A stretch of 24,466 bases of DNA from Deferrisomatales bacterium (lineage in GTDB: Bacteria > Desulfobacterota > Deferrisomatia > Deferrisomatales > JACRMM01), in NCBI GenBank assembly GCA_033551855.1, contig JAWSUI010000056.1, forward strand, positions 1 to 24,466. The letters run 5' to 3'. A program made the position numbers and the translations under genes. Numbering within the stretch: position 1 is the first letter of the stretch; each line of letters begins with the position of its first letter. Below the pieces are notes generated by a model. It was not told the origin of the DNA. It did not search any database and saw nothing but the letters and a program-made list of their open reading frames with translations. Of the stretch, positions 2,417 through 20,407 are shown piece after piece.

Positions 2417-3205
2417 ATGGAGCGGGTCCTCGACGTCCGCAACCTGTGCATGAGCTTCGGCGGCCTCCGGGCCCTCGAGGCCGTGGACCTCGACGTGCGC
2501 CCGAGGGAGATCGCCGCGCTGATCGGGCCCAACGGTGCGGGGAAGACCACCTTCTTCAACTGCATCACGGGGATCTACCCCCCCACCGCCGGCGACATCT
2601 TCCTCGAGACCCCGGGCGGGGGCCGCACCCGGCTCAACGGGCTCAAACCCCACCGCGTCACGGAGCGCGGCATGGCCCGCACCTTCCAGAACATCCGCCT
2701 CTTCCCCAACATGACCGCCCTGGAGAACGTCATGGTCGGCCGCCACTGCCGCACCGCCGCGGGCATCCTGGGGGCCGTCTTCCGCGGGCCCTCGACCCGC
2801 GCAGAGGAACGGGAAACGGCGGAGCGCAGCTACGAGCTCCTGCAGCGGGTGGGACTCGCGTCCTACGTCAACGACCTGGCCAAGAACCTGCCCTACGGCG
2901 CTCAACGGCGGCTGGAAATCGCACGGGCCCTGGCCACCGAGCCGGTGCTCCTGCTCCTGGACGAGCCGGCGGCGGGCATGAATCCCCAGGAGACCTCGGA
3001 TCTCGACGAGCTCATTACCCGGATCCGGGAAGAGTCTGACATCTCCATCCTCCTCATCGAGCACGACATGAAGCTCGTCATGAGCCTGTCGGACCGAATC
3101 TTCGTCGTGGAATACGGCCGCAAGATCGCAGAAGGCACGCCGGACGAGATCCGGTACGACCCGGCGGTGATCAAGGCCTACCTGGGGGAGGAGGCGGCCG
3201 GCTGA
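2417..3205 (+). CDS. livG: Branched-chain amino acid ABC transporter ATP-binding protein LivG
   Basis: Walker A GPNGAGKT, RTFQNIRLF, LPYGAQRRLEIARALA, Walker B LLLDEPAAG, C-terminal AYLG. Confidence 0.95.
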   Translation: MERVLDVRNLCMSFGGLRALEAVDLDVRPREIAALIGPNGAGKTTFFNCITGIYPPTAGDIFLETPGGGRTRLNGLKPHRVTERGMARTFQNIRLFPNMTALENVMVGRHCRTAAGILGAVFRGPSTRAEERETAERSYELLQRVGLASYVNDLAKNLPYGAQRRLEIARALATEPVLLLLDEPAAGMNPQETSDLDELITRIREESDISILLIEHDMKLVMSLSDRIFVVEYGRKIAEGTPDEIRYDPAVIKAYLGEEAAG

Positions 3206-3279
3206 GGGATCGTCGCGGGCAGGCTGAGGTGCGAAGCGCACGCCGGAAGACGGGCGGATCTCCAACCGCGAGGACTCTC

Positions 3280-5379
3280 ATGCGTCGAAGCCTACTGATC
3301 CTGGGACTTTTCTGGGCTGCAACCGCCCACGGACCCGCCGAAGCCCAGCTCACGGCGACGGTGCCGAACGACACCTATCGGACCATCCAGGAGGGCATCG
3401 ACGCGGCCTTCGAGAGCGGCGGGGGGACGATCACGGTGCGGGCGGGCACCTACTCCGACTCGCTCAACCTCCGGGCCGGCGTCACCCTTCGGGGGGAGGA
3501 GACCGCCGCCACCATCCTCACGGGAGGGATCACAGCCCAGGGCGGCACCGCTTCGCGGACGCTGCAGCGCTTCACGATCACGGGTAACGAGGTGAGCTTT
3601 GCCAACGCCTCGAATCTCGACATCCGGAACAACGTCTTCCACAGCCTGTCCGGGGCGGCCTTGAGACTGCAGAACTGCTCCGGTGCGACCGTGGCCAACA
3701 ACACCTTCTACGGCAACGCCACGGCGTTGAGCCTCTCCGGCAGCACCGGCCGTGTGGAGGCCAACCTCTTCGCCGGAAACGCGGTTGCGGTGAATCGCGA
3801 CGCCGGCGCCGTCTCGTTTCCCCACAACTTCTTCGACACGGCCAGCCAGGACCCCACGGAGGAGACCGTGTCCAACCAGGATCCCCTGCTCGTCGACCCC
3901 GGCGGCGGGGATTTCCACCTTCGCGCCGGCTCTCCCTGCATCAACGCGGCGGCGACCGCCGAGGGCGGAGACACCGACCAGGGGGCCTACGGCGGTTCGG
4001 GGGCCGATCGGCGTCCCTCCGCGGTGGGGGGGCTCGAGGTCGAGCTCCTGGGTCCCGACGGGACGGGCGTGCGCCTGCGGTGGCACCCCAACCTCGCGTA
4101 CGACATCTCGGAGTACCGGGTCTATTACGGTGCGGACGAATCCTTGGCGGGAACGGGGGCGGACCAGGGGCCCTCCGGCTACGTCGTGCCGGGCCCGCTC
4201 AACACGGTGTCGGACCTCACCGGTCTCACCGTCGCGGCAGAATCCCCGGAGACGGTGCAGGGGCTCGAGGGATTTTCCCGGAACCGCGGGGTCTTCCTTC
4301 GTTGGGAGGCGGCACCTGGCGCCACAGGGTACCGGGTCCTCTGGGGCCCCGCCGGGGTCGGGCTCGAAAGCTCGGCCGACGTCGGCAACGTCACGTCCCA
4401 CACGGTGACGGGGCTCGCCAACGGCCAACCGTACCGATTCGCCGTTCGTTCCCTGGGGGGTACGACCCATCACTTCGCAGTGACGGCGCGGGCGAGCACG
4501 CCGGCGGGCGCCTTTGAGAGTCGGAGGGCCCAGGTGTTGGCCGTGCCGATCACCGAACTGGAGGGCAACCTCTCGGCCGAGGTGCTCCAGACGCCGGAAG
4601 AGACGGTGGGCTTTCCGGAGCTCGCAGACCGCGGAGGCTGCTTCGTCCAGGCGACCTCCGGCGGCCCCCCCCGCACGGGCGCCCTGTGGGTCGGCGCGGT
4701 CTTGCTGGCGCTGCTGGGAGCGCTCCTTGCGGGGCCGCGCGGCGCGGTCTGCACGGCCCTCCTCGCCGCGCTCCTCCTTTCCCCGGCCGCCGCCCACGCC
4801 GGCCCCGCCCGGTGGAGCGCCGGGGTCAAGGGCGGGATCCTGTTCCCCGGAGAGAGCGGCTGGGGCAGCCACTACGACTCCGACGTGGTCGCGGACTGGA
4901 GGCTATCCCTCGGCTACCGCCTCTCTTCCCGCCTGGAAGTCGGACTGGAAGGGGGGTACCGCAAGGCAGAAGGGAAGGTGTCCGAGAGCCGCTCCGGCCA
5001 GCCCCTGGGCCGGTCCCTGGACCAGACCCTGACGGTCGTCCCGGCCCAGGCCTATGTCCTCTACGACCTTCGCTGGAGCGACCACCAGTGGGTGGTGCCG
5101 TATCTGGGCGGGGGTTACAGCCGGTACTACTACCGCCACGAGGTGGACGAGGGGGAGGATACCCGAGGGCGGCAGCACGGGTACCACCTCCGGGGCGGAC
5201 TCAACATCCTCTTGAATCCCCTGGACCCGCAAGCAGCCCAGCGGGCGCGCTCCGGCTTCGGGGTCGCGCGGACCTACGCGTGCCTCGAGGGGCAGTACGC
5301 CCGGGTGGACGACTTCGGATCGGCCGACGCCGACCTGGGAGGCTGGAGCGTTCTCGCCGGCGTGGCCGTGCACTTCTGA
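3280..5379 (+). CDS. Exported multidomain protein: signal peptide, pectin-lyase-like parallel beta-helix, two FN3 domains, GGCFV motif with TM segment, internal signal-like segment, outer-membrane beta-barrel
   Basis: ATG at 3280 follows GAGGA. Signal peptide MRRSLLILGLFWAATAHGPAEA. Beta-helix hallmarks TIQEGID, VRAGTY, IRNNVF, VANNTFYGN, DFHLRAGSPCINA, DQGAYGG. FN3 hallmarks LRW, YRVYYG, TGLANGQPYRFAV. Barrel hallmarks VVPYLGGGY and a terminal Phe (VAVHF). Confidence 0.85.
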   Translation: MRRSLLILGLFWAATAHGPAEAQLTATVPNDTYRTIQEGIDAAFESGGGTITVRAGTYSDSLNLRAGVTLRGEETAATILTGGITAQGGTASRTLQRFTITGNEVSFANASNLDIRNNVFHSLSGAALRLQNCSGATVANNTFYGNATALSLSGSTGRVEANLFAGNAVAVNRDAGAVSFPHNFFDTASQDPTEETVSNQDPLLVDPGGGDFHLRAGSPCINAAATAEGGDTDQGAYGGSGADRRPSAVGGLEVELLGPDGTGVRLRWHPNLAYDISEYRVYYGADESLAGTGADQGPSGYVVPGPLNTVSDLTGLTVAAESPETVQGLEGFSRNRGVFLRWEAAPGATGYRVLWGPAGVGLESSADVGNVTSHTVTGLANGQPYRFAVRSLGGTTHHFAVTARASTPAGAFESRRAQVLAVPITELEGNLSAEVLQTPEETVGFPELADRGGCFVQATSGGPPRTGALWVGAVLLALLGALLAGPRGAVCTALLAALLLSPAAAHAGPARWSAGVKGGILFPGESGWGSHYDSDVVADWRLSLGYRLSSRLEVGLEGGYRKAEGKVSESRSGQPLGRSLDQTLTVVPAQAYVLYDLRWSDHQWVVPYLGGGYSRYYYRHEVDEGEDTRGRQHGYHLRGGLNILLNPLDPQAAQRARSGFGVARTYACLEGQYARVDDFGSADADLGGWSVLAGVAVHF

Positions 5380-5460
5380 TCCCTGCGGCCCCGAGGTGCG
5401 AAGTCCCCCAAAGGCACCCGGCAGCGAGCGATGTCGGACCCCACCCCCTTTGGCCCGGCG

Positions 5461-8400
5461 TCACGCCGCCTGGGCCGAGCGCTCCTCGGTCAGGCGCACC
5501 GAAACCGCCCGGCTCACCCCGGGTTCTCCCATCGTCACCCCGTACAGGTGGCGCGCCGCCTCCATGGTCGACTTGTTGTGGGTGATCAGGAAGAACTGGG
5601 AAGCGCCCGACAGGGAGCGGAGCAGCTCGCAGAACCGGCCGATGTTCGCCTCGTCCAGCGGTGCGTCGACCTCGTCGAGGATGCAGAAGGGGCTGGGCTT
5701 CACCAGAAAGATCGAGAAGATCAGCGCCACCGCGGTGAGGGCCTTTTCGCCCCCGGAGAGCAGGCTGATGTGCTGGGGGCGTTTGCCGGCGGGACGAGCC
5801 ACGATGTCGATACCGGTCTCGAGCACGTCCTCCGGGTCGGTGAGCACCAGGCGCGCCTCTCCCCCCTGGAAGAGCTGGGGGTAGAGGCCCTGGAAGGTCC
5901 GGCTCACCTTCTCGAAGGTCTCGGCGAATCGCTCCCGGGACACCCGGTTGATGCGCTGGATCGCCTGCTTGAGGGAAGCGAGGCTCTCCTCCAGATCGCG
6001 CCGCTGGGCCTCGAGGAACTCGTAGCGGTTCTTCCGCTCCTCGTGCTCCTCGATGGCGAGGAGGTTGATCTCACCGAAGGCCTCGAGCTCCGCGCCCAAG
6101 GCGCGCACGCGCGTCTCCGCCGCTTCGGGGTCGAACCCTTCGCCGACTCCCGCGCCGGCCTCCGTCTCCAGGTCCCCCCCGAGGCGTTCCCGGAACCGCT
6201 CGGAAAGGCTCTCGCAGCGCAACTCCAGGTCCCGCAAGCCCAACTCCGCCTCGCCGTGGCGCTTCTGAAGGGCGTCGACGTCCCTCCGGGCCTGTGAGGC
6301 CGACCGCTCCTCGGCCGTGAGCTCCCCGCGGCGCGTGTCGAGACGCTGGCCGAGCTCGGAGACCCGGGCCTCCTGGCGCTCAAGCTCCGTCCGGAGGACC
6401 TCGGCTTCCCGAACCACCCGCTCGAGCTCGCCCACCCGGGCCTCCCGCGTGCACTCACACTCCAGGGCCTCTTCCCCGAGCCTCACGACACGGCGCGACA
6501 CGTTCTCCAAGGACGTGCGGAGCGCGCGGATCCGCTCCCCCAACCCGTCACGGCGCTCCCGGTCCGAGGCCTCGTCCACCTGGAGTCTCGTGAGGTCCTC
6601 GTGGGCGGCGCGCACCCGATCCCTCAGGTGAGCCAGGGCTCTCTCCCGGTCCTCGCGTCGCGACGCTTCCTCCTCCTGCAGGCAGAGAAGTCGCGCCTTC
6701 TCCACCTCGAGGGCAGCCGCCTCGGTCTCCCACCGTCCGCCCTCGGCCCAGAGGTCGTCGCGCTCGAGCTCCATCGCCTCCCGCCGCTCCTCGAGGCGCT
6801 CGCGCCGCTCCCGGAGCTGGGTCAGGTCCTTGGCGGCGTGGACCACCTGGAGCTCGCAGCGGTGCATCTCTTCCCGCGCCGTCTCGAGGCGCGCGGACAA
6901 GTCCCGGAACCGGGCGTCGTTCTCGGCGAGCGCGGCCTCCCGGGCCCCCAACTCTACGGCCAGCCCCCGGACCCTCTCCCGCAGCTCCCGAATCTGACGG
7001 TTTCGCTGGAGCAGACCGGGACCGGCCGCGCCGGCCGTGCCGCCGGAGATGACCCCCTCGGGGCTCAGGGTCTCCCCCTCGAGGGTCACCAGGGTCGCGC
7101 GGATCCCGTTGGCCTCCCACAGGCGCACCGCCTGCTCGAGCGTCTCCACGACGAATACGTCACCCAGGAGGCACCGAGCCAGCCCCTCGTAGGCCGGCGT
7201 CACGGTCACCAGGTCGAGCAGGGGCCCCCTCGCCCCGGTCTCTCCCCCCTTCGGGAAGACCGATTCACTGACCTCCCGCAGGGACAGGGGAGCAAAGCTG
7301 GATCGACCGGCCCGCTTCTCCTTCAACCGGCGGACCCCCTCGAGACCCCGTTCCGGGCTCTCGACGATCACGTACTGGAGGCGCTCTCCCAGGGCCGCCT
7401 CCAGGGCAGCCTCGTACTCCGCAGGGGCCGAGATGGCATCTGCCACTACCCCGTGCACACCGTTTCGCCCACCCGACCGGGCCTCGGCGAGAATGGCCTT
7501 GACCCCCGCCCCGTACCACTCCAGGCTGTCCTTGAGCTGCTCCAGCCCCTTGAGGCGAGACTGGTCCGTGTGGAGTTCCCGGCGGGCTTCCTCCACCCCG
7601 CGGCGGAGGAGTTCGCTCTCCCCTCGGAGGGACTGGAGCTCCTCCTCCAGCCGAACCCGATCCCCGCGAGCCAGGTCGCGCACCCTCTCCGCGGTGCCCA
7701 GCTCCTCTTCGCGGCGGCCCTGTTCCGCCCCGACCTCCCGAAGCCTGGCAGCCACCTCCTCCCCCTGGCGGCCCATCCCCTCGAGGCGGCGGGCCACGTC
7801 CTGCCGCTGCCGAAGGGCGTGCTCCAGGCCGTGGCGCACCCGCGTGAGCTCACCGAGAAGGGCCACCTCGGCCCGCGTCTCCTCGTCCAAGCCCCGCTCG
7901 GCCGCCTGCTGCAGCGCCAAGGCCTCAGCGTGCTGCGCCGTGAGATCCGTCAGGAGGCGCCCCCGGCCCGCGATCCTCTCCGCGACCCGCTGGAGCTCCT
8001 CCTCCAGCGCCTGCGCCTCCCCCTGGAGGTCCCCCCGCCGAGCCTCGAGCTCGCGAGCCTCCTCCCGGGAACCCTGCGCTCGGCGGGCCAGACCCTCCGC
8101 CTCCCGCTGGAGGAACTCCACCCGCCCCTCCCGCTGGGTGATCTGGTTCCGGAGGTGATAGACGCCCTTCTGGGCGCTCTCGAAGGCCCGCTCCTCGTCC
8201 AGCAGCTGCACGCGCCCCTTCTCCAGGCCCGCCTCCAGGCGCCCGGCCCGAGCCCGGGCCTCCGCCACGGCGGTCTCCAGGTCCCGGACGGCCTGCCGCG
8301 CCTCGGCGGATCCCAGCCGGAGCCCGTGCCAGGCCGAGACCGAGAGATCCCGCTCCAGCGCCCTCTTCTCCCCCCGCAGCCGACGGAAGGCCTCGGCCCG

Positions 8401-9039
8401 TGCCGCCTGCCGCTTGAGGACGTTCATCTCGCGGCGCACCTCCCCGATCACGTCCCCCAGCCGGGCGAGGTTCTGAGCGGTGTGCTCCATCTTGCGCACC
8501 GTCTCTTCCTTCCGGCTCCGGTACTTCGTGATCCCGGCCGCCTCCTCGATCAGGAAGCGCCGATCCCTGGGCTTGGCGGAGAGGAGCGTCTCGATCCGGC
8601 CCTGCTCGACCACGGAGTACGCGCGGCGGCCCACCCCCGTGTCCATGAAGAGCTCGGTGACATCCCGGAGCCTGCACGGCACCTTGTTGATCAGATATTC
8701 GCTCTCTCCCGACCGGTGCAGCCGTCGGGTGACCGCCACCTCGTGAAAGGAGCCGAACCTTTCGGGCAGGTGGCCCTCCACCTCCGCCAGGGTCAGGGTC
8801 ACCTCGCACAGATTCAACGGCTTGCGCGACTCGCTCCCGGAGAAGATCACGTCCTCCATGGAGTCGCCCCGCAACCCCTTGGCGCTCATCTCTCCCATCA
8901 CCCAACGAATGGCATCGACAATATTGGACTTCCCGCAGCCGTTGGGCCCGACGATGGCCGTGGTCCCCTCGTGGAAGACCAGCTCGGTGGGCTCGGGGAA
9001 AGACTTGAAGCCGAAGAGGGCGAGTTTCTTCAGTTTCAT
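5461..9039 (-). CDS. smc: Chromosome segregation protein SMC (1192 aa)
   Basis: Start MKLKKLALFGFKSF, Walker A GPNGCGKSN, long coiled coils, hinge, LLSGGEK signature, DEVDAPLD, ITHN. Confidence 0.97.
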   Translation of the reverse strand: MKLKKLALFGFKSFPEPTELVFHEGTTAIVGPNGCGKSNIVDAIRWVMGEMSAKGLRGDSMEDVIFSGSESRKPLNLCEVTLTLAEVEGHLPERFGSFHEVAVTRRLHRSGESEYLINKVPCRLRDVTELFMDTGVGRRAYSVVEQGRIETLLSAKPRDRRFLIEEAAGITKYRSRKEETVRKMEHTAQNLARLGDVIGEVRREMNVLKRQAARAEAFRRLRGEKRALERDLSVSAWHGLRLGSAEARQAVRDLETAVAEARARAGRLEAGLEKGRVQLLDEERAFESAQKGVYHLRNQITQREGRVEFLQREAEGLARRAQGSREEARELEARRGDLQGEAQALEEELQRVAERIAGRGRLLTDLTAQHAEALALQQAAERGLDEETRAEVALLGELTRVRHGLEHALRQRQDVARRLEGMGRQGEEVAARLREVGAEQGRREEELGTAERVRDLARGDRVRLEEELQSLRGESELLRRGVEEARRELHTDQSRLKGLEQLKDSLEWYGAGVKAILAEARSGGRNGVHGVVADAISAPAEYEAALEAALGERLQYVIVESPERGLEGVRRLKEKRAGRSSFAPLSLREVSESVFPKGGETGARGPLLDLVTVTPAYEGLARCLLGDVFVVETLEQAVRLWEANGIRATLVTLEGETLSPEGVISGGTAGAAGPGLLQRNRQIRELRERVRGLAVELGAREAALAENDARFRDLSARLETAREEMHRCELQVVHAAKDLTQLRERRERLEERREAMELERDDLWAEGGRWETEAAALEVEKARLLCLQEEEASRREDRERALAHLRDRVRAAHEDLTRLQVDEASDRERRDGLGERIRALRTSLENVSRRVVRLGEEALECECTREARVGELERVVREAEVLRTELERQEARVSELGQRLDTRRGELTAEERSASQARRDVDALQKRHGEAELGLRDLELRCESLSERFRERLGGDLETEAGAGVGEGFDPEAAETRVRALGAELEAFGEINLLAIEEHEERKNRYEFLEAQRRDLEESLASLKQAIQRINRVSRERFAETFEKVSRTFQGLYPQLFQGGEARLVLTDPEDVLETGIDIVARPAGKRPQHISLLSGGEKALTAVALIFSIFLVKPSPFCILDEVDAPLDEANIGRFCELLRSLSGASQFFLITHNKSTMEAARHLYGVTMGEPGVSRAVSVRLTEERSAQAA

Positions 9040-9076
9040 CCGGACCCCAGGCGGGGGGGGGAACGCGCTCGGAGGG

Positions 9077-9105
9077 ATGATAACGGACCCGGGAGGGGAA
9101 GTAAA
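9077..9105 (-). promoter_or_regulatory. Putative sigma70 promoter of smc
   Basis: Minus strand TTTACT-17 bp-TATCAT, about 40 bp upstream of the ATG. Confidence 0.6.
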
Positions 9106-9112
9106 GGGCAAA

Positions 9113-9159
9113 ACACAACCAGATGTGGGCCCCGCATGCCGAGACACTACATATTGTGC
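9113..9159. promoter_or_regulatory. Tandem NrdR-box-like operators upstream of smc
   Basis: ACACTACATATTGTGC (9144-9159) fits the consensus acaCwAtATaTwGtgt. A weaker ACACAACCAGATGTGG (9113-9128) starts 31 bp away. Confidence 0.65.
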
Positions 9160-9611
9160 CCTCCGCGAAAGAGCCGGAGCCACCTCTCGACCTCTTCGGG
9201 GGAGAGGGAAGCCTCGGAGGGTGGGGCTCTGCGCCTACCGGGGGCGGGTTTCAGGCGCGGGAGGAAGTGTTCGGCGCTCTCCACCCGAGCCCCCAGCCGG
9301 CGCGCCCTCTCGGCCAGCCCCCGATCCGACGTCACCACCGTCGCGTCCCCGGGGCGGCCCCGGGCGAGCCTTCTCAGGATCTCCTCGTCGGCCGTCCTTC
9401 CCCGGGGGGAGAAGACCACCCGGACGCCCCCGAAGGAGCTTTCCTTGGCCGCCCCGGGGCGGTTTCCGTCGAAGACCGCGACCACCCGCTGTCTTCCCCT
9501 GCCCTGCAGGGCGGCGAGCCTGCGGAGAAGCTGTTCCCGAGCCTCCTCCTCCGTCTCCAGGGAGAGGTCCGGGGCCCGCCCGATGAGGTTGTGACCATCC
9601 ACCAGCAGCAA
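9147..9611 (-). CDS. YacP-like NYN-domain (PIN-like) putative ribonuclease
   Basis: Motifs LLVDGHNLI, VAVFDG, TADEEI and VVTSDRGL; TTG start preceded by GGAGG. Confidence 0.85.
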   Translation of the reverse strand: MLLVDGHNLIGRAPDLSLETEEEAREQLLRRLAALQGRGRQRVVAVFDGNRPGAAKESSFGGVRVVFSPRGRTADEEILRRLARGRPGDATVVTSDRGLAERARRLGARVESAEHFLPRLKPAPGRRRAPPSEASLSPEEVERWLRLFRGGHNM

Positions 9612-9648: not shown

Positions 9649-10836
9649 CTATTTCCCCGCGACCCTTTGCAAGGCCCGGACGAAACCCGGGAGGCTTCGC
9701 TCGACCGTCTCGAACGAGCAGCAGTACGCCAGGCGAAAGTGCCCGGGCCCCCCGAAGCCGGTCCCGGGCACGGCCAGGATGTTCTCCTTCTGGAGCTCCT
9801 GCACGAAGGCCACGTCGTCCGGGATCGGGCTGCGGGGGAAGAGGTAGAAGGCGCCCTCCGGACGGAGACACCGGTAACCCGCCTCGGTCAGGGCCTCGTA
9901 GAGCCGATCCCGGTTCCTGCGGTAGAAGCCCACGTCCACTTTCACCCCCTGGAGCCGCGCCACGACCCGCTGCATCAGGGCCGGTGCGTTCACGAACCCC
10001 AGGATGCGATTGGTCAGGGCCAGCGCCCCGAGGAGCAAGTCGACCTCCGGCATGGCGGGGTTTACCGCGATGTACCCGATCCGCTCCCCGGGGAGGCTCA
10101 GATCCTTCGAGTACGAAGTGCACACCACCGAGTGGGGAAAGAGCGGAAAGACCCCGGGGACCTCCCATCCGTCGTAGACGATGTTGCGGTAGGGTTCGTC
10201 GGAGATCAGGTAGATGACCCGTCCGCTCTCCCGACTTTTCCGGGAGACGAGCTCGCTGAGCGCCTGCAGGCTCTCCCGCGAGTACACCTTCCCGGTGGGG
10301 TTGTTGGGAGAGTTCAGGAGCACCACGCGGGTGCGCGGGCTGAACGCTTCCTCGAGCGCCTCGAGCCGCAGATCGAACTCCTCCGAGGTCGGCACCGACT
10401 TCAGGACCCCTCGGTGGTTGTCGGCGTAATAGCCGTACTCCACGAAATAGGGCCGTGGGACCACGATCTCGTCACCCGGCTCGAGGATGGCCCGGAACAC
10501 CGCGTTGAGGGCGCCGCCGGCGCCCACGGTCATGAGCACGTGTTTCCCGGAGACCGCCACGCCCTGATCCTTCGCAACCTGCCCCGCCACGGCCTCCCGC
10601 ACCTCGGGGTAGCCGGCGTTCGGCATGTAGCCGTGGGCTCCGGGTCGGTCCTCGGCCACGAGCTCCCGCAACACCTTGCGGAAGGCCTCCGGAGGGTCCA
10701 GGTTCGGGTTCCCCAGGCTGAAATCGAAGACGTTTTCGGCACCGAACTCCCCCTTGAGGCGAGCTCCCTCCTCGAACATCTTCCGAATCCAGGATGAACC
10801 CTCCATCGCCTCCCGAATGCTTCGCGCGACAGGCAT
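9649..10836 (-). CDS. PLP-dependent class I/II aminotransferase (aspartate aminotransferase-like), 395 aa
   Basis: Motifs SWIRKMFEEG, DFSLGNP, NSPNNPTG, SDEPY and SYSKDLSLPGERIGY (PLP lysine); ATG at 10836 follows GAGGAGG. Confidence 0.92.
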   Translation of the reverse strand: MPVARSIREAMEGSSWIRKMFEEGARLKGEFGAENVFDFSLGNPNLDPPEAFRKVLRELVAEDRPGAHGYMPNAGYPEVREAVAGQVAKDQGVAVSGKHVLMTVGAGGALNAVFRAILEPGDEIVVPRPYFVEYGYYADNHRGVLKSVPTSEEFDLRLEALEEAFSPRTRVVLLNSPNNPTGKVYSRESLQALSELVSRKSRESGRVIYLISDEPYRNIVYDGWEVPGVFPLFPHSVVCTSYSKDLSLPGERIGYIAVNPAMPEVDLLLGALALTNRILGFVNAPALMQRVVARLQGVKVDVGFYRRNRDRLYEALTEAGYRCLRPEGAFYLFPRSPIPDDVAFVQELQKENILAVPGTGFGGPGHFRLAYCCSFETVERSLPGFVRALQRVAGK

Positions 10837-10873
10837 CGCGTGCCTCCTCTGCCATGTCCCCGTGGGGAATTGG

Positions 10874-10903
10874 ACTCTAGCAGACGCGGCCCCGGCCGTA
10901 CAA
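10874..10903 (-). promoter_or_regulatory. Putative sigma70 promoter of the aminotransferase
   Basis: Minus strand TTGTAC-18 bp-TAGAGT, overlapped by the inverted repeat GCAGACG...CGTCTGC (10880-10910). Confidence 0.4.
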
Positions 10904-11176
10904 CGTCTGCCTGGCCCCGGGGGCGGCGGGGCTGCAGACCGAGTCCTCCACGGGCCCCCGGAATCCACCGTCAGACTTTCGGGCGGGCGCGGGGAGCCGT
11001 GGAGCGCAGCCCCGCACCGCATCCACCGACCCGATGAGGCCGGCGCACGCAGGGGAATCCCGGCCCACCGGTGCCTGCTCGGACACCCCTTCGCACGGCC
11101 ACGGCTTGCGGGGCTCGGCGCCGGGGTCCTCCGGCCCTGCCGGGAGCCGGGTGGCGAATCCCGCGCCCGGGCACGG

Positions 11177-11205
11177 TTGACTTTGGTGTCCGCCGAGAAT
11201 AGCCT
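11177..11205 (+). promoter_or_regulatory. Putative sigma70 promoter of slyD
   Basis: TTGACT-17 bp-TAGCCT. Confidence 0.6.
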
Positions 11206-11281
11206 ATCGACCCGTACGCGCCCTGGGATCGCCCCCCGCACAGCGCGGGGGGCGGCCGGGGCATTTTCTTGAGGAGCGACA

Positions 11282-17078: not shown

Positions 17079-17413
17079 AGAAGGTCAGCGACCGCTATCT
17101 GAAGATCGTGGAATGGTCCGAGGAGGACGGCTGCTACGTCGGCACCTGCCCCGAGCTCGTGTACGGGGGCGTCCACGGAGACGACGAGGCCGCCGTTTAT
17201 GCGGAGCTCTGCCGCGTGGCCGAGGAGGCCGTGGAGCTCTACGGGAAGGACTGCAAGCCGCTTCCCCCCGCGACGGCCGGCAAGGCATACTCGGGCCGGT
17301 TCGTCCTGCGCGTTCCCCCCGAAATCCACAGAACGCTCGCCATCCGGGCCCTCCAGCGGGGCAAGAGCCTCAACGCCTACTGCCAGGAGGTCCTCCGCTC
17401 CGCCGTCCGCTAG
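17075..17413 (+). CDS. hicB: HicB family antitoxin with a C-terminal RHH domain, 112 aa
   Basis: ATGA overlap and RBS GAGGAGG; motifs VEWSEEDGCYVGTCPEL, HGDD, YSGRFVLRVPPEIHRTLA and GKSLNAY. Confidence 0.9.
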   Translation: MKKVSDRYLKIVEWSEEDGCYVGTCPELVYGGVHGDDEAAVYAELCRVAEEAVELYGKDCKPLPPATAGKAYSGRFVLRVPPEIHRTLAIRALQRGKSLNAYCQEVLRSAVR

Positions 17414-17559
17414 AGGAGGAGGCCGCATCGGCCAAACTGCCGCCATGCTTGCCCGGGCCCCACGCCGGCAGTGCGTTTATGGGGATTCGTGCGCGGACCC
17501 CTGTACCACGTGGAATAGCGTTTCCCCCGCGTGCCCACAATACTCTCATGTACCCGCCC

Positions 17560-19383
17560 CTACTCCTCCTCTTCCTCCTCCCGGGCCAACTCCTCGAACT
17601 TGATGTCGATCCCCAGGACGCCCGCCATCTGGTCCCCGGCGTCGTAGATGGGGGCGGACACCGTGATGGTGAGCCGCCCGGTGACCTTGGAGGTGTAGAC
17701 GTCGGTCAGGGACACCTTGCCCGTCCTCACGGGCTCCGTGAACCACACCCGGTCCGCGTAGTTGTCGTACACCTCGTATTCGGCGTACTTGGCCTTGTCC
17801 TCGATCTGGGTGATGTTGCGCGTGATCTTGCGCCCCTCCAGATCGGTCGCGTACACGAACTGGAAGAAGGGGTGCTCCTCGGCCATGTCCCGCATGACCT
17901 TTTCCATCCGGGACGGGTCCATCGAGCGGATCTCGGGGTCTTCCACCATCCCCTCGATGATGTGCGTCACCATGTCGAGGACGCGCTTCTTGAGCTTGTC
18001 GTACTCGGAGATGAAGAGCTGGGGCATGTACTTGCGCACCTTGCGCTCCATCTCCTCGTTGGACAGGGCCGTAGTGCGCCCGTCGTCGTAGGAGCGCATG
18101 ACCGAGCGGTGAACCTTGGCCACGCCCGGGTGGCGCTTGTCGATCTTCTGGTCCTCTCCCAGGGCGAAGTGGGTGTTGATCCAGTGGGCGACGCCGGCCA
18201 CTCCGGACTTGTCGGTGACCGCGATGCCCATGGGGCGGTTGAGGATCTTCCGGGTGTCGAAGATGTTGTAGATCTCTTCGTCCTTGGCGATCCCGTCGAT
18301 GTGGATGCCCGCACGGGTGGTGTTGAAGTCCGAGCCCACGAAGGGCATGGAGGCCGGGATGTGCATCCCGAGCTCCCGCTCGCAGTAGTTTCGCATCTCG
18401 GTGATGACGGTGGCGTCGATGCCGTCGTCGGTTCCCTTGAGCTCCATGTACTCGACGATCAGGCCCTCGAGGGGGGGGTTGCCGGTGCGCTCCCCGAAAC
18501 CCAGCAGCGTCCCGTTGGCCGCGGCGCACCCGTAGAGCCACGCCGTCGAAGCATTGATGAGGACTTTGTGGAAGTCGTTGTGCCCGTGCCACTCGAGCTG
18601 CTCGGGGGGCACGCCCGCGTCGTCGATCATGGCCCGCACCAAGCGCGGCACGCTGCGGGGGAGCGCCGCCCCGGGGTAGGGCACGCCGAAGCCCATCGTG
18701 TCGCAGAGGCGGATCTTCACGGGGATGCCGGCCTTCCTGCCCGCCGCCATGAGGGCCCGGGCAAAGGGCACCACGAAGCCGTAGATGTCGGCCCGGGTCA
18801 CGTCCTCGAAGTGGCATCGGGGTATCACGCCCTGCTCCAGGGCCGCCTCCACCACCCCCATGTAGTCACGGAACGCCTCCCGGCGCTTCTTCCCGAGCTT
18901 GAGGTAGATGTGGTAGTCGGAGACGGAGGTGAGGATGCCGGTCTCCCGGATCCCCATGCTCTTCACGAGCTTGAAGTCTTCCTTCACCGCCCGGATCCAT
19001 GCCGTGATCTCGGGGTAGCGGTAGCCGAGCTCCCGGCACCGCTCCACCGCCTCCCGGTCCCGCTCGGAGTAGAGGAAGAACTCGGTCTGGCGGATGATCC
19101 CCTTCGGGCCCCCCAGGTCGTGGAGGAGCTTGAAGAGGGCGACGACCTGGTCCGGGGTGTAGGGCGCCCGGGCCTGCTGCCCGTCCCGGAAGGTGGTGTC
19201 GGTGATCCAGATCTCCTCCGGCGGGTCGGGGGTGAGGAGGATCCCGTCGAAGGGGGTGCGGCAGACCTCGGCGTAGGGAAAGATCTCCCGGTACAGGTTT
19301 GGCTCGTCGCGCTCGACCACCTCGTCGAGGGGGTAATCGGCGTGGGACTTGCGCAGCAGGCGGGCGCCCCTGGTCTCGGGCAT
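17560..19383 (-). CDS. Re-citrate synthase-like DRE-TIM metallolyase with a C-terminal Cache/PDC-like domain
   Basis: Motifs ITDTTFRDGQQAR, RCHFEDVTRAD, EWHGHNDF, GFGERTGN and FNTTRAGIH. C-terminal DRVWF...TDVYTS...TVSAPI...GVLGIDI. Confidence 0.82.
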   Translation of the reverse strand: MPETRGARLLRKSHADYPLDEVVERDEPNLYREIFPYAEVCRTPFDGILLTPDPPEEIWITDTTFRDGQQARAPYTPDQVVALFKLLHDLGGPKGIIRQTEFFLYSERDREAVERCRELGYRYPEITAWIRAVKEDFKLVKSMGIRETGILTSVSDYHIYLKLGKKRREAFRDYMGVVEAALEQGVIPRCHFEDVTRADIYGFVVPFARALMAAGRKAGIPVKIRLCDTMGFGVPYPGAALPRSVPRLVRAMIDDAGVPPEQLEWHGHNDFHKVLINASTAWLYGCAAANGTLLGFGERTGNPPLEGLIVEYMELKGTDDGIDATVITEMRNYCERELGMHIPASMPFVGSDFNTTRAGIHIDGIAKDEEIYNIFDTRKILNRPMGIAVTDKSGVAGVAHWINTHFALGEDQKIDKRHPGVAKVHRSVMRSYDDGRTTALSNEEMERKVRKYMPQLFISEYDKLKKRVLDMVTHIIEGMVEDPEIRSMDPSRMEKVMRDMAEEHPFFQFVYATDLEGRKITRNITQIEDKAKYAEYEVYDNYADRVWFTEPVRTGKVSLTDVYTSKVTGRLTITVSAPIYDAGDQMAGVLGIDIKFEELAREEEEEE

Positions 19384-19417
19384 GGCGTCGTTCCTCCGGG
19401 TGAAGCGGCTGCCCGGT

Positions 19418-20407
19418 TCAGGGGCGTACCGCGGGTTCGGATGTCGGGTGCAGCGCGGCGCTCCGTTCCCGGACCAGCTGGGCCAGGGCCCGGACGAAGG
19501 AGGGCCGGGTGTTGAGCGACGGGCTGCGCCGGAAGACCTCGAACCCCAGGGACTCGGCCAGCTCCCGGTACTCCACGTCGATCTCGTGCAGGGTCTCGAT
19601 GTGATCCGAGACGAAGCTCACCGGGACCACCACGACCCGCTTCACCCCTTGTCCCGCCAGGGCGGCGAGCTCGTCTGCCACCGAGGGCTCGAGCCAGCGC
19701 ACCGGCCCCGTGCGGCTCTGGAAGGCCAGCCGGTAGGGCACGCCGGGCAGGTGCGTCATGACGGCGGCCACCGTGGCCTGCACGTGGCCGAGGTAGGGGT
19801 CGCCCCCCTCGATGAGCTTCACGGGCAGGCCGTGGGCGCTGAAGAGCACGGTGGCGCCCTCCAGACCCTCCAGGGCCTCGCGCACGCACGCGGCCAGGGC
19901 GGAGACGTAGGGAGGGAAGTCCTCCCAGGAGCGGATCACCTCCCGGGGCAGGCCGTCGAGCCCCTCTTCGGCCAGGGCCCGCTCCATGTCTGCCAGGCTC
20001 GACCCGGAGGTGGCACGGCTGAACTGGGGGTAGAGGGGCAGCGCGACGATCGCCCGGGCCCCCGAAGCCTGCACTGCCCGCGCGGCCTCCGCGGCTCGGG
20101 GGTGCCAGTAGCGCATGGCCACGGTGACGGCGTAGCCCGGGCCCAGCTCGGCCTCCAGGGCCTTCGCCTGGGCCCGGGTGATCTCCCCCAGGGGGCTCCT
20201 TCCGCCGATCGCCCGGTAGTTCTCCGCCGAGCGGGGGGCGCGGCGCTTGGCAATCCACCACGCCAGGGGACGCCGCACGAAAGCCGGGGCCGGCAGGATC
20301 GCGGGATCCGAGAAGAGATTGTGCAGGAACGGCCGAACGGCGTCCAGGGAGTCCGGCCCGCCCATGTTGAGCAAGACCACCGCAATCTTCGCCGCCTGGC
20401 CCGTCAT
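19418..20407 (-). CDS. hemH: Ferrochelatase
   Basis: Motifs LLNMGGP, IGGRSPL, AMRYWHP, LPLYPQFS, FSAHGLP, FQSR...WLEP and FVSDHIETLHEID. Confidence 0.95.
   Translation of the reverse strand: MTGQAAKIAVVLLNMGGPDSLDAVRPFLHNLFSDPAILPAPAFVRRPLAWWIAKRRAPRSAENYRAIGGRSPLGEITRAQAKALEAELGPGYAVTVAMRYWHPRAAEAARAVQASGARAIVALPLYPQFSRATSGSSLADMERALAEEGLDGLPREVIRSWEDFPPYVSALAACVREALEGLEGATVLFSAHGLPVKLIEGGDPYLGHVQATVAAVMTHLPGVPYRLAFQSRTGPVRWLEPSVADELAALAGQGVKRVVVVPVSFVSDHIETLHEIDVEYRELAESLGFEVFRRSPSLNTRPSFVRALAQLVRERSAALHPTSEPAVRP

What the first reader, a model, noticed from the sequence alone, without database searches (positions are those of the whole stretch)
4621..5379. Probable single-gene polyprotein: Cys-anchored surface passenger plus its own outer-membrane beta-barrel behind an internal signal peptide
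Seen: after the exported beta-helix/FN3 region comes DRGG-C-FVQA (Cys codon at 4639). Then a hydrophobic helix ALWVGAVLLALLGALLA (4681-4731), a short GPR turn, and a second hydrophobic stretch ending in an A-x-A site (ALLAALLLSPAAAHA/GPARW, predicted cut after 4800). The last ~190 aa look like an amphipathic beta-barrel ending in Phe. Established: Gly/Cys-plus-TM C-terminal sorting signals (GlyGly-CTERM, MYXO-CTERM) are processed by intramembrane sortases, A-x-A is the signal peptidase I site, and a terminal Phe is the BAM signal. From memory, the motif resembles CFI-box-CTERM and the barrel resembles the MXAN_2562 family; I could not verify this. Inference: the chain crosses the inner membrane out-in-out and is cut into two products, a passenger anchored at the Cys and a free barrel that may dock or translocate it. 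This would differ from an autotransporter, which has no internal TM hairpin.
Basis: partly seen in the sequence, partly recalled or inferred. Interest (0 to 1): 0.85.

Follow-up and report, generated by a model that had tools for sequence, protein, structure and literature searches.

The report
Surface-type protein fused to partner barrel
One gene of an uncultured sulfate-reducer relative joins an exported beta-helix/fibronectin-type protein, a cysteine tag and a membrane helix to a small outer-membrane barrel through a retained export signal, so one precursor is likely cut into two partner proteins; the layout is real and conserved, but it resembles gene pairs and one fusion already noted in myxobacteria.

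Summary
Window 3280-5379 (+) is one 699-aa reading frame: signal peptide, NosD-like beta-helix, two FN3 domains, an invariant Cys454-Phe455, a 17-residue hydrophobic helix, a Gly-Pro-Arg-Gly turn, a signal-peptide-like stretch ending Ala-His-Ala, then a 192-aa domain that AlphaFold2 folds as an 8-stranded OmpA/Ail-like barrel ending in Phe.

The barrel matches the MXAN_2562 family (E 6e-25, 88 bits, under the curated 100). The CFI-box-CTERM model does not match. Homologous passengers carry that domain at the same place, so the tag here is a derivative that lacks about 50 residues.

The fusion is not an artefact. Stop-free orthologs exist in 5 other genomes (37-74% identity), and a second assembly covers the joint without indels. 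In the same phylum the two halves are also adjacent, sometimes overlapping, genes. Of the best 150 barrel cluster representatives, 43 are fused.

Cleavage by signal peptidase I is inferred, not shown. Translocation through an 8-stranded barrel is unlikely. No known dedicated sortase was found.

This scan has found the same layout before on other DNA (5 notes). A 2025 paper notes a similar fusion, MXAN_5598.

The parts
3270..3274 (+). GAGGA ribosome-binding site, 5 nt before ATG 3280
   Evidence: Read directly from the sequence.
3280..5379 (+). Whole gene: 699 codons plus TGA. Passenger, tag, hairpin and barrel form one precursor.
   Evidence: One frame with GC3 0.80-0.94. Stop-free orthologs. 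An independent contig without indels.
3280..3348 (+). N-terminal Sec signal peptide (aa 1-23, MRRSLLILGLFWAATAHGPAEA/Q); cleavage is predicted
   Evidence: Sequence. Aligned A-x-A sites in homologs. AF2 helix at residues 4-15.
3349..3999 (+). Right-handed beta-helix, NosD/CASH-like (aa about 24-240)
   Evidence: PF05048 at 2.2e-8 and PF13229 at 2.6e-7. AF2 strand ladder at 24-214 with pLDDT about 88-95.
4027..4584 (+). Two FN3-like domains (aa about 250-435)
   Evidence: PF00041 at 1.4e-7 over aa 337-394. AF2 strands at 253-437. Foldseek hits to tandem FN3 structures.
4585..4650 (+). Conserved tail with invariant Pro439, Pro446, Leu448, Cys454 and Phe455. This is a reduced CFI-type Cys motif; the Cys codon is at 4639-4641.
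   Evidence: Invariant columns in A1. Mean pairwise identity 0.61. No NF041770 match.
4681..4731 (+). Hydrophobic helix TM1 (aa 468-484); predicted stop-transfer anchor
   Evidence: KD(15) maximum 2.58. AF2 helix at 467-483. Present in 16 of 16 aligned homologs.
4732..4743 (+). Gly-Pro-Arg-Gly turn; predicted to be cytoplasmic (positive-inside rule)
   Evidence: The loop is net positive in 16 of 16 homologs, +1 to +11.
4744..4800 (+). Internal signal-peptide-like segment (aa 489-507): 12-residue h-region, Ser-Pro breaker, A-H-A. The predicted signal peptidase I cut is after 4800.
   Evidence: It occupies the position held by the N-terminal signal peptide of the separate barrel genes.
4801..5376 (+). 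8-stranded OmpA/Ail-like outer-membrane beta-barrel, MXAN_2562-family relative, ending GVAVHF
   Evidence: NF040596 at 5.8e-25 and PF13505 at 1.3e-6. AF2 gives 8 strands. Foldseek 1bxw TMt 0.73, 9fzc 0.68, 3qrc 0.61.

Best explanation
This single gene encodes an exported beta-helix/FN3 protein that ends in a reduced CFI-type Cys-Phe tag and a membrane helix, joined in frame through a retained signal peptide to an 8-stranded outer-membrane barrel, and the precursor is likely cut by signal peptidase I after Ala507 into two partner proteins.

Shown: the anatomy, the barrel fold prediction, conservation of the fusion, and the existence of split two-gene forms of the same module.

Inferred pathway:
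1. The N-terminal signal peptide exports the passenger.
2. TM1 (aa 468-484) stops transfer, with Arg487 on the cytoplasmic side.
3. The second hydrophobic stretch re-initiates translocation and is cut at A-H-A/G.
4. The freed 192-aa barrel is assembled by BAM through its terminal Phe.
5. The passenger stays in the inner membrane by a TM1 plus signal-peptide hairpin unless it is cut again near Cys454.
6. The barrel then serves as the passenger's partner or anchor, as proposed for TraA/TraB and SgmI/MXAN_2562, and not as its channel.
For: Anatomy and coordinates.

The fusion is real:
- One frame runs across the joint.
- A second assembly covers 4400-5400 in one piece at depth 29 with two substitutions and no indels; it may come from the same sample.
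- Full-length, stop-free matches occur in 5 of 40 other related genomes (G002 74%, G001 65%, G005 44%, G008 42%, G004 37%).
- There are 13 database proteins of 639-720 aa with at least 91% coverage.

Barrel:
- NF040596 at E 5.8e-25.
- AF2 gives 8 strands at high pLDDT.
- Foldseek finds the OmpA TM domain at TMt 0.73 and Ail at 0.61.

The internal segment behaves like a signal peptide:
- Junction identity is 0.28, against 0.55-0.61 for the flanks and 0.35 for the N-terminal signal peptide.
- Position -1 is A or G in 13 of 13; position -3 is A, G or V in 13 of 13; position +1 is acidic in 11 of 13.
- The loop before it is net positive in 16 of 16.

Split forms:
- In 15 of 301 genomes of the phylum with the barrel, 10 have a separate barrel gene with its own Met and signal peptide directly behind an FN3 passenger with a CFI motif or box. 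Four are fused and 1 is cut by a contig end.
- Gaps between the two genes are -4 (ATGA overlap) in 2, 2-44 nt in 6, and 204 nt in 1.

Census:
- 43 of the best 150 barrel cluster representatives are at least 450 aa with the barrel at the C-terminal end, and 93 are 190-310 aa.
- On a tree of 138 rows, fused versus alone changes 24 times, and at least 13 changes are forced by starred branches.
- The window's 16-row clade is all fused once P0064 is read as a fragment that begins inside TM1.

No internal start: no in-frame ATG, GTG or TTG lies between the end of TM1 and the cut site, and none is conserved in L002-L004.

Precedent: in the passages read from PMC11980579, MXAN_5598 has an internal MYXO-CTERM followed by an OM barrel and is compared with TraA/TraB. 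The passage read from bioRxiv 10.64898/2026.08.28.747804 says that sgmI and MXAN_2562 appear co-transcribed, with similar fitness profiles.
Against: No experiment and no dedicated predictor (SignalP, DeepTMHMM) was available, so the cut site rests on the -3/-1 rule and on comparison.

The search for signal peptidase I (TIGR02227) in the genome gave only two matches under the cut-off (34.8 and 28.8 bits against 47).

AF2 confidence in the hairpin is low (pLDDT 41-51).

After the cut the passenger would keep an unusual TM plus signal-peptide hairpin, for which I know no characterised example.

Some 'alone' rows in the census are fragments of fused genes (for example P0064), so the number of fusion/fission events is overstated.

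Partner binding is not tested. AF2 leaves the Cys-Phe linker disordered both here (residues 454-472, pLDDT under 50) and in the direct-fusion relative P0127 (residues 634-649).
Confidence: 0.65

Rival explanations
1. After the signal peptidase cut, the passenger is lipidated at Cys454 and cut there by an intramembrane sortase-like protease (as MYXO-CTERM is by myxosortase). It is then displayed on the cell surface, anchored at the Cys, with the barrel docking or translocating it.
For: Cys454-Phe455 are invariant in 16 of 16 homologs. The Cys / hydrophobic helix / basic residue layout resembles tripartite Cys signals, as described in the passages read from PMC11980579. Those authors state that sorting tags can work inside a protein. 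Three secretins are present in the genome.
Against: No CTERM model matches at E up to 10. There is no exosortase. The 3 CPBP and 3 rhomboid proteins all score far under the curated cut-offs of MrtJ/MrtS/Mrt_core and rhombosortase. There is no second CFI-box protein, and a crude screen of 2204 frames found no family of Cys / TM / basic C-terminal tags. An 8-stranded barrel cannot pass a passenger. Some split passengers end 20-30 residues after CFIATA with no helix at all (L029, L034, L007, L033), and some fusions have no hydrophobic segment (P0127, P0132, P0148). The Cys-Phe motif is therefore kept where an intramembrane protease would have nothing to hold.
Confidence: 0.25
2. The passenger is not surface-exposed. 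It stays in the periplasm, held by its helix in the inner membrane or by the Cys-Phe tail on the barrel. Passenger and barrel would then form an envelope tether or a periplasmic, NosD-like carbohydrate-handling module fixed under the outer membrane.
For: On the tree, 7 of 138 rows are direct passenger-barrel fusions without any hydrophobic segment. In P0127 a disordered linker of about 16 residues leads straight into strand 1 of the barrel. From established knowledge of BAM-assembled even-stranded barrels, both termini lie in the periplasm, so those passengers would be periplasmic. The beta-helix matches the periplasmic NosD family.
Against: The myxobacterial relatives with Cys tags (TraA) are surface proteins by experiment, in the passages read from PMC11980579. 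FN3/beta-helix passengers are typical of adhesins. No binding test could be run.
Confidence: 0.3
3. The protein is not cut. The two hydrophobic segments form a permanent hairpin, and the whole chain is an inner-membrane protein.
For: Cleavage is untested. AF2 draws two adjacent helices.
Against: The barrel starts about 4 residues after the A-x-A site, so an uncut chain could not reach the outer membrane. Even so, the barrel keeps its fold, a terminal Phe or Trp in 13 of 13, and 0.61 identity. The second segment has a short 12-residue h-region with a Pro/Gly/Ser breaker, and it is the counterpart of true N-terminal signal peptides in split genes.
Confidence: 0.07
4. The fusion is an artefact (lost stop, frameshift or assembly error), or the barrel is made separately from an internal start codon.
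For: Split relatives have overlapping or closely spaced genes, so one indel could fuse them.
Against: The fusion is conserved in 5 other genomes down to 37% identity and in a whole clade of cluster representatives. An independent contig shows no indel. GC3 is continuous across the joint. There is no in-frame ATG, GTG or TTG between TM1 and the cut site.
Confidence: 0.03

Closest known systems
Myxococcus xanthus SgmI (MXAN_2561, FN3 protein with MYXO-CTERM) plus MXAN_2562 (OM beta-barrel); NCBIfam NF045522 and NF040596
   Same: An FN3-bearing exported protein with a C-terminal Cys tag is followed by a small barrel of the same sequence family. The pair is reported as apparently co-transcribed, with similar transposon fitness profiles (passage read from bioRxiv 10.64898/2026.08.28.747804).
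   Different: There the two are separate genes and the tag is MYXO-CTERM. Here there is one reading frame, the tag derives from a CFI box, and the barrel scores 88 bits, under the family's 100-bit cut-off.
MXAN_5598 of M. xanthus (internal MYXO-CTERM followed by OM barrel and OmpA domain), and the TraA/TraB pair (PMC11980579, Discussion passage read)
   Same: An adhesin-type N-terminal part, an internal Cys sorting tag, then an outer-membrane barrel in one gene. The authors propose that the N-terminal part is processed and surface-anchored.
   Different: The tag family and the barrel differ, and here there is no OmpA peptidoglycan-binding domain. That paper proposes processing at the tag and, in the passages read, does not discuss an internal signal peptide. 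It describes a single case, whereas here a whole clade is fused and 43 of 150 cluster representatives are fused.
CFI-box-CTERM domain proteins (NCBIfam NF041770), for example P0036 and P0047, named so by NCBI
   Same: The homologous beta-helix/FN3 passenger (31-33% identity over 61-65% of the query) has the Cys-Phe at the aligned position.
   Different: The 69-position box scores 84-95 bits in P0015, P0016, P0020, P0036 and P0047. It gives no hit here or in P0012 and P0014. About 50 residues after CF(I/V) are missing. No paper in the library holds the term.
Classical (type Va) autotransporters
   Same: An N-terminal passenger and a C-terminal outer-membrane barrel in one precursor.
   Different: The barrel has 8 strands, not 12. 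There is no linker helix in a pore. An inner-membrane hairpin with a signal-peptidase site lies between the two parts.
Bradyrhizobium FbcH cytochrome b/c1 precursor, cut at an internal signal peptide (recalled; not found in the library)
   Same: A bacterial membrane polyprotein in which a signal peptide inside the chain is used by signal peptidase.
   Different: The proteins are unrelated and both products stay at the inner membrane. This comparison rests on memory only.

Membership tests
MXAN_2562 family OM beta-barrel (NF040596) | Model score at or above the curated cut-off (100 bits) | tested here: not met
   88.2 bits at E 5.8e-25, matching model positions 48-208 only; 87.4 bits in the genome search. 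It is a clear relative but falls under the cut-off.
MXAN_2562 family OM beta-barrel (NF040596) | Small outer-membrane beta-barrel fold with an aromatic C-terminus | tested here: met
   AF2 gives 8 strands with block pLDDT mostly 82-92. Foldseek finds OmpA at TMt 0.73. The protein ends in Phe, and the C-terminal residue is F or W in 13 of 13 homologs.
MXAN_2562 family OM beta-barrel (NF040596) | Encoded directly behind an FN3 protein that carries a Cys tag | tested here: met
   Fused here. In 10 of 15 phylum genomes with the barrel it is an adjacent separate gene.
CFI-box-CTERM (NF041770) | Model score at or above 40 bits | tested here: not met
   No hit at E up to 10 on three junction pieces, and none in the whole genome at E up to 0.1.
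CFI-box-CTERM (NF041770) | Cys-Phe-Ile/Val start of the box, at the end of the passenger | tested here: met
   The sequence is GGCFV, and Cys454 and Phe455 are invariant in A1.
CFI-box-CTERM (NF041770) | Located at the C-terminus of the protein | tested here: not met
   245 residues follow the Cys.
MYXO-CTERM-type tripartite Cys sorting signal with myxosortase | Cys motif, then a TM helix, then a basic cluster | tested here: inconclusive
   The layout is present (Cys454, helix 468-484, Arg487), but there is a single Arg and a 13-residue spacer. No TIGR03901 hit was listed.
MYXO-CTERM-type tripartite Cys sorting signal with myxosortase | A cognate dedicated intramembrane protease in the genome | tested here: not met
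   Best scores were MrtJ 42 bits (cut-off 75), MrtS 27 (130), Mrt_core 19 (100) and rhombosortase 28 (84). No exosortase was found.
MYXO-CTERM-type tripartite Cys sorting signal with myxosortase | Lipidation of, and cleavage at, the Cys | not testable with these tools
   This needs labelling and mass spectrometry.
Type I (SPase I) signal peptide, used internally | n-region with positive charge, h-region of about 10-15 residues, a helix breaker, and small residues at -3 and -1 | tested here: met
   The sequence is R487 / AVCTALLAALLL / SP / A-H-A. Position -1 is A or G in 13 of 13, and position -3 is A, G or V in 13 of 13.
Type I (SPase I) signal peptide, used internally | Actual cleavage | not testable with these tools
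   No SignalP was available and no proteomics data exist.
Type Va autotransporter | 12-stranded barrel with the passenger linker inside the pore | tested here: not met
   The barrel has 8 strands, and the linker is replaced by a TM hairpin.

The most novel reading that the evidence does not exclude
The Cys-Phe motif is not a sortase signal. It is the handle by which an FN3 passenger is held by its own dedicated 8-stranded barrel. Passenger and barrel would then form a widespread, so far undescribed two-part anchoring module of diderm envelopes. The module has been fused and split many times. In its fused form it is a true bacterial envelope polyprotein, resolved by signal peptidase I at an internal signal peptide.
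Probability: 0.25. Interest if true: 0.7.

Novelty: new variant of a known kind. Interest (0 to 1): 0.5.

Why it matters
Gene fusion is strong evidence that two proteins work together. Here it links Cys-tagged surface-type proteins to small outer-membrane barrels of a family with no solved structure and no known role. It does so repeatedly: at least 13 changes between fused and separate forms are forced on the tree.

The fused form would also be a natural case of a signal peptide used in the middle of a bacterial protein. One precursor would supply both an inner-membrane-anchored product and an outer-membrane product in equal amounts.

It offers a compact construct for testing:
- how such tags are processed;
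- whether the barrel is an anchor;
- on which side of the outer membrane the passenger sits.

The reduced tag in this clade (Cys-Phe kept, about 50 residues lost) narrows down which part of the CFI box is essential.

Tried and rejected
- **Complex prediction (passenger 24-466 against the barrel):** the queue was full and again. Searches came before the waiting time ended and were not sent. Nothing was folded, so binding remains open.
- **AF2 of the direct-fusion relative P0127 with 80 rows:** the aim was to see whether the CFI linker sits in or on the barrel. The linker (residues 634-649) came out below pLDDT 50, so there is no information either way.
- **Lost stop or assembly error:** rejected.
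- **Internal translation start:** rejected for this gene. My pattern did not pick up L005 and L006, so only L002-L004 were checked among the orthologs.
- **Dedicated sorting enzyme next to the gene:** the neighbours are a LivG-type ABC ATPase and SMC, and none was found elsewhere above cut-offs.
- **Screen of the genome for other C-terminal Cys / TM / basic tags:** 45 of 2204 frames had a hydrophobic, basic tail. All looked like ordinary polytopic membrane proteins. The filter is crude and proves little.
- **Sequence relatives of the barrel in the PDB:** none below E 0.5.
- **RNA evidence:** no RNA holder is listed.
- **Literature:** 'CFI-box-CTERM' occurs in 0 papers. The searches for 'internal signal peptide' with barrel terms and for fbcH gave nothing usable.
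- **Disulfide between the passenger Cys and the barrel:** the barrel's Cys (TYACLEG) is not conserved in P0011 and P0012, so this is unlikely.
- **Supplements:** Table S1 of PMC11980579 was not opened.
Full report
**1. Observation**

The frame 3229-5379 (+) is open. The likely start is ATG 3280, five bases after GAGGA, which gives 699 residues.

- Cys454: codon 4639-4641, in DRGGCFVQA.
- ALWVGAVLLALLGALLA: 4681-4731.
- GPRG: 4732-4743.
- AVCTALLAALLLSPAAAHA: 4744-4800.
- GPARWSAG: begins at 4801.
- The frame ends GVAVHF, followed by TGA.

These two hydrophobic stretches are the only ones in the protein with Kyte-Doolittle(15) above 1.6. GC3 stays between 0.80 and 0.94 in this one frame across the joint.

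**2. Domains**

Pfam finds NosD (2.2e-8), Beta_helix (2.6e-7) and fn3 (1.4e-7) in the N-terminal 400 residues, and OMP_b-brl in the C-terminal part.

NCBIfam finds the MXAN_2562 family barrel at E 5.8e-25 and 88.2 bits, under its curated 100 bits. Weaker hits are the Bd0486 barrel (1.3e-7) and CglE (7.2e-5). No C-terminal sorting-signal model matches three pieces of the junction at E up to 10.

AlphaFold2 with 16 aligned homologs gives mean pLDDT 81 and pTM 0.49. The model contains:
- a beta-helix;
- two FN3-like sandwiches;
- a disordered stretch at 454-472;
- two helices at 467-483 and 486-500 (pLDDT 41-51);
- eight strands at 511-523, 537-547, 552-569, 575-596, 605-622, 628-644, 664-676 and 688-698, with block pLDDT mostly 82-92.

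Foldseek against the PDB finds the OmpA transmembrane domain (1bxw, TMt 0.73; 9fzc, 0.68) and Ail (3qrc, 0.61) for that part, and tandem FN3 structures for the middle. A profile of the barrel finds no solved sequence relative (best E 0.53).

**3. The fusion is real and conserved**

Of 40 related genomes searched, 5 hold a full-length match without stops: G002 74% and G001 65% (same genus), G005 44% and G004 37% (same family), and G008 42% (same order).

The protein database holds 13 proteins of 639-720 residues that cover at least 91% of the query. Sources name two of these: one is from a Thermodesulfobacteriota MAG and one from a Deferrisomatales MAG.

A contig of a public run covers 4400-5400 in one piece at depth 29, with two substitutions (4521 T>C, 4878 C>T) and no indel. 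It may come from the same sample, so it is weak as independent support.

**4. The junction in homologs**

In alignment A1 (16 sequences) Cys454, Phe455, Pro439, Pro446 and Leu448 are invariant. All 16 have at least two hydrophobic segments after the Cys, a net-positive loop (+1 to +11) before the last one, and a small-x-small site just before the conserved R/Q-W-S/T that opens the barrel.

Among the 13 close homologs:

| Region | Mean pairwise identity |
|---|---|
| Passenger | 0.55 |
| Tail | 0.61 |
| Junction 458-507 | 0.28 |
| Barrel | 0.61 |
| N-terminal signal peptide | 0.35 |

Also:
- Position -1 is A or G in 13 of 13.
- Position -3 is A, G or V in 13 of 13.
- Position +1 is Asp or Glu in 11 of 13.
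- The last residue is Phe or Trp in 13 of 13.

The junction therefore evolves like a signal or anchor segment: its physical character is kept and its sequence is not.

**5. Relation to the CFI box**

More distant homologs of about 560-660 residues cover only the passenger (58-67% of the query). NCBI names two of them CFI-box-CTERM domain-containing proteins.

The NF041770 model scores 84-95 bits in P0036, P0047, P0020, P0015 and P0016. P0015 and P0016 also carry the barrel, so they are fused. The model does not score in P0012 and P0014, which belong to the window's type.

In A1 the box-bearing proteins have about 50 extra residues after CFIATAAFG and a third hydrophobic segment. The window's clade thus keeps the Cys-Phe and one helix but has lost the body of the box. 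The window's genome holds no other CFI-box match.

**6. Split forms**

In a sample of 301 genomes of the phylum, 15 have a barrel match at E up to 1e-8. I read all their loci with a profile built from the barrel columns of A1.

- In 10 genomes (G042, G085, G047, G041, G105, G028, G138, G111, G075, G034) the barrel is a separate gene with its own Met, basic n-region and signal peptide. It lies directly behind an FN3 protein. In 9 of the 10 that protein's printed tail shows C-F-I/V-A-T-A; in G047 it shows the later part of the box.
- In 4 genomes (G000, G005, G090, G052) the two are fused.
- In G081 the upstream DNA is cut by the contig end.

The gap between the passenger stop and the barrel start is -4 (ATGA overlap) in 2 loci, 2-44 nt in 6, and 204 nt in 1. 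A single indel can therefore fuse or split the pair.

Some split passengers end 20-30 residues after the motif with no hydrophobic helix, and the other frames hold no remnant of one (L029, L034, L007, L033).

**7. Census and tree**

The 192-residue barrel finds 350 cluster representatives at E up to 0.001 and 121 at E up to 1e-10 among 1.84 billion. The best 150 break down as follows:

| Length class | Count |
|---|---|
| At least 450 residues, barrel at the C-terminal end | 43 |
| 190-310 residues | 93 |
| Under 190 residues | 12 |
| Between 310 and 450 residues | 2 |

Of the 43 long ones, 29 have a Cys-aromatic/aliphatic motif upstream. Others have Gly-Cys motifs of the MYXO-CTERM kind. Three (P0127, P0132, P0148) run from GGCFI through about 20 polar residues straight into the barrel with no hydrophobic segment.

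I built a quick maximum-likelihood tree of 138 rows, dropping rows with fewer than 150 profile positions matched. The tree needs 24 changes between fused and alone, at least 13 of them forced by starred branches, against a shuffled mean of 38.

The window sits in a starred clade of 16 rows, of which 15 are fused. The one 'alone' row (P0064) begins inside TM1, so it is a fragment of a fused gene. Such fragments inflate the count of changes.

**8. Mechanism**

What is shown is the anatomy and its conservation. The following pathway is inferred:
1. The N-terminal signal peptide exports the passenger.
2. The 17-residue helix stops transfer, with Arg487 inside.
3. The 12-residue h-region, with its Ser-Pro breaker and A-H-A, re-opens translocation and is cut by signal peptidase I after Ala507.
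4. The barrel goes to BAM.

Three points support a cut:
- The barrel begins about four residues after the site, so an uncut chain could not reach the outer membrane.
- The segment is the positional counterpart of real N-terminal signal peptides in split genes.
- No in-frame ATG, GTG or TTG lies between the helix and the site.

The genome search for signal peptidase I gave only sub-threshold matches, which I treat as inconclusive.

**9. What happens to the passenger is open**

- No exosortase was found.
- The three CPBP and three rhomboid proteins are all far under the curated cut-offs for myxosortase-family enzymes and rhombosortase.
- No enzyme gene lies next to the gene; the neighbours are a LivG-type ATPase and SMC.
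- There is no other tagged protein.
- The Cys-Phe motif is kept in relatives that have no helix at all.

An 8-stranded barrel cannot conduct a passenger.

Direct fusions tie the passenger to the N-terminus of the barrel by a short disordered linker (P0127, AF2). By the established topology of such barrels, that N-terminus lies in the periplasm. This raises the possibility that the passenger works under the outer membrane, not on it.

Against that, TraA and other MYXO-CTERM proteins are surface proteins by experiment (passages read from PMC11980579).

**10. Known relatives and novelty**

In the Discussion passage I read, the 2025 myxosortase paper (PMC11980579) describes MXAN_5598 as an adhesin with an internal MYXO-CTERM followed by an OM barrel and an OmpA domain. 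It likens this to TraA/TraB and proposes that the N-terminal part is processed and surface-anchored.

In the passage I read, a 2026 preprint (10.64898/2026.08.28.747804) says that sgmI (MXAN_2561; two FN3 domains and a sorting tag) appears co-transcribed with MXAN_2562, and that insertions in both have similar fitness profiles.

The term 'CFI-box-CTERM' occurs in no paper of the library. The text of the Haft preprint holds neither 'CFI' nor MXAN_2562.

This scan has noted the same layout before in five other genomes. The gene is therefore a new variant of a kind that is known in outline: a fused clade with a reduced tag, in a different phylum.

**11. Verdict**

My confidence in the polyprotein-cut reading is 0.65. 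Interest is 0.5. The architecture is real, widespread and testable, but it is not new to the literature in concept or to this scan, and the key steps remain inferred.

Noticed in passing
P0127, P0132, P0148 (also P0181, P0196, P0129, P0143): These are passenger-barrel fusions with no hydrophobic segment between the GGCFI (or other) tail and the barrel. The passenger is tied directly to the barrel's N-terminus. AF2 of P0127 leaves the linker (residues 634-649) disordered.
   Followed up: partly
L029:- about 1240-1420; L034:- about 1200-1400; L007:+ 940-1300; L033: These split-form passengers end 20-30 residues after CFIATA/CFVATA with no transmembrane helix and no box remnant in the other frames. 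The Cys-Phe motif therefore persists without a membrane anchor.
   Followed up: partly
L028:1417-1420 (+), and L025 minus strand (positions 1411-1414 of its reverse complement): The passenger stop and the barrel start overlap as ATGA. This is typical of translational coupling and is one indel away from a fusion.
   Followed up: yes
window 4521 and 4878: A public-run contig differs from the window by T>C at 4521 and C>T at 4878. This may be strain variation or assembly difference, and there are no indels.
   Followed up: no
window 2417-3205 (+) and 5461-9183 (-): The neighbours are a branched-chain amino-acid ABC ATPase (LivG type) and an SMC chromosome-segregation protein. The gene stands alone among housekeeping genes, with no sorting or secretion gene beside it.
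   Followed up: partly
window 9649-11241 (-): This is a 530-aa class I/II aminotransferase whose Pfam match starts at residue 170. The N-terminal extension is unexplained; the ORF start may simply be too far upstream.
   Followed up: no
window 17113-19515 (+), overlapping 17560-19383 (-): Long open frames on both strands have no Pfam match on the + frame. Which strand is coding was not resolved.
   Followed up: no
window residues Cys220 and Cys454 of the 3280-5379 gene: The passenger has two invariant cysteines: GSPCI in the beta-helix and GGCF in the tail. An intramolecular disulfide was not examined.
   Followed up: no
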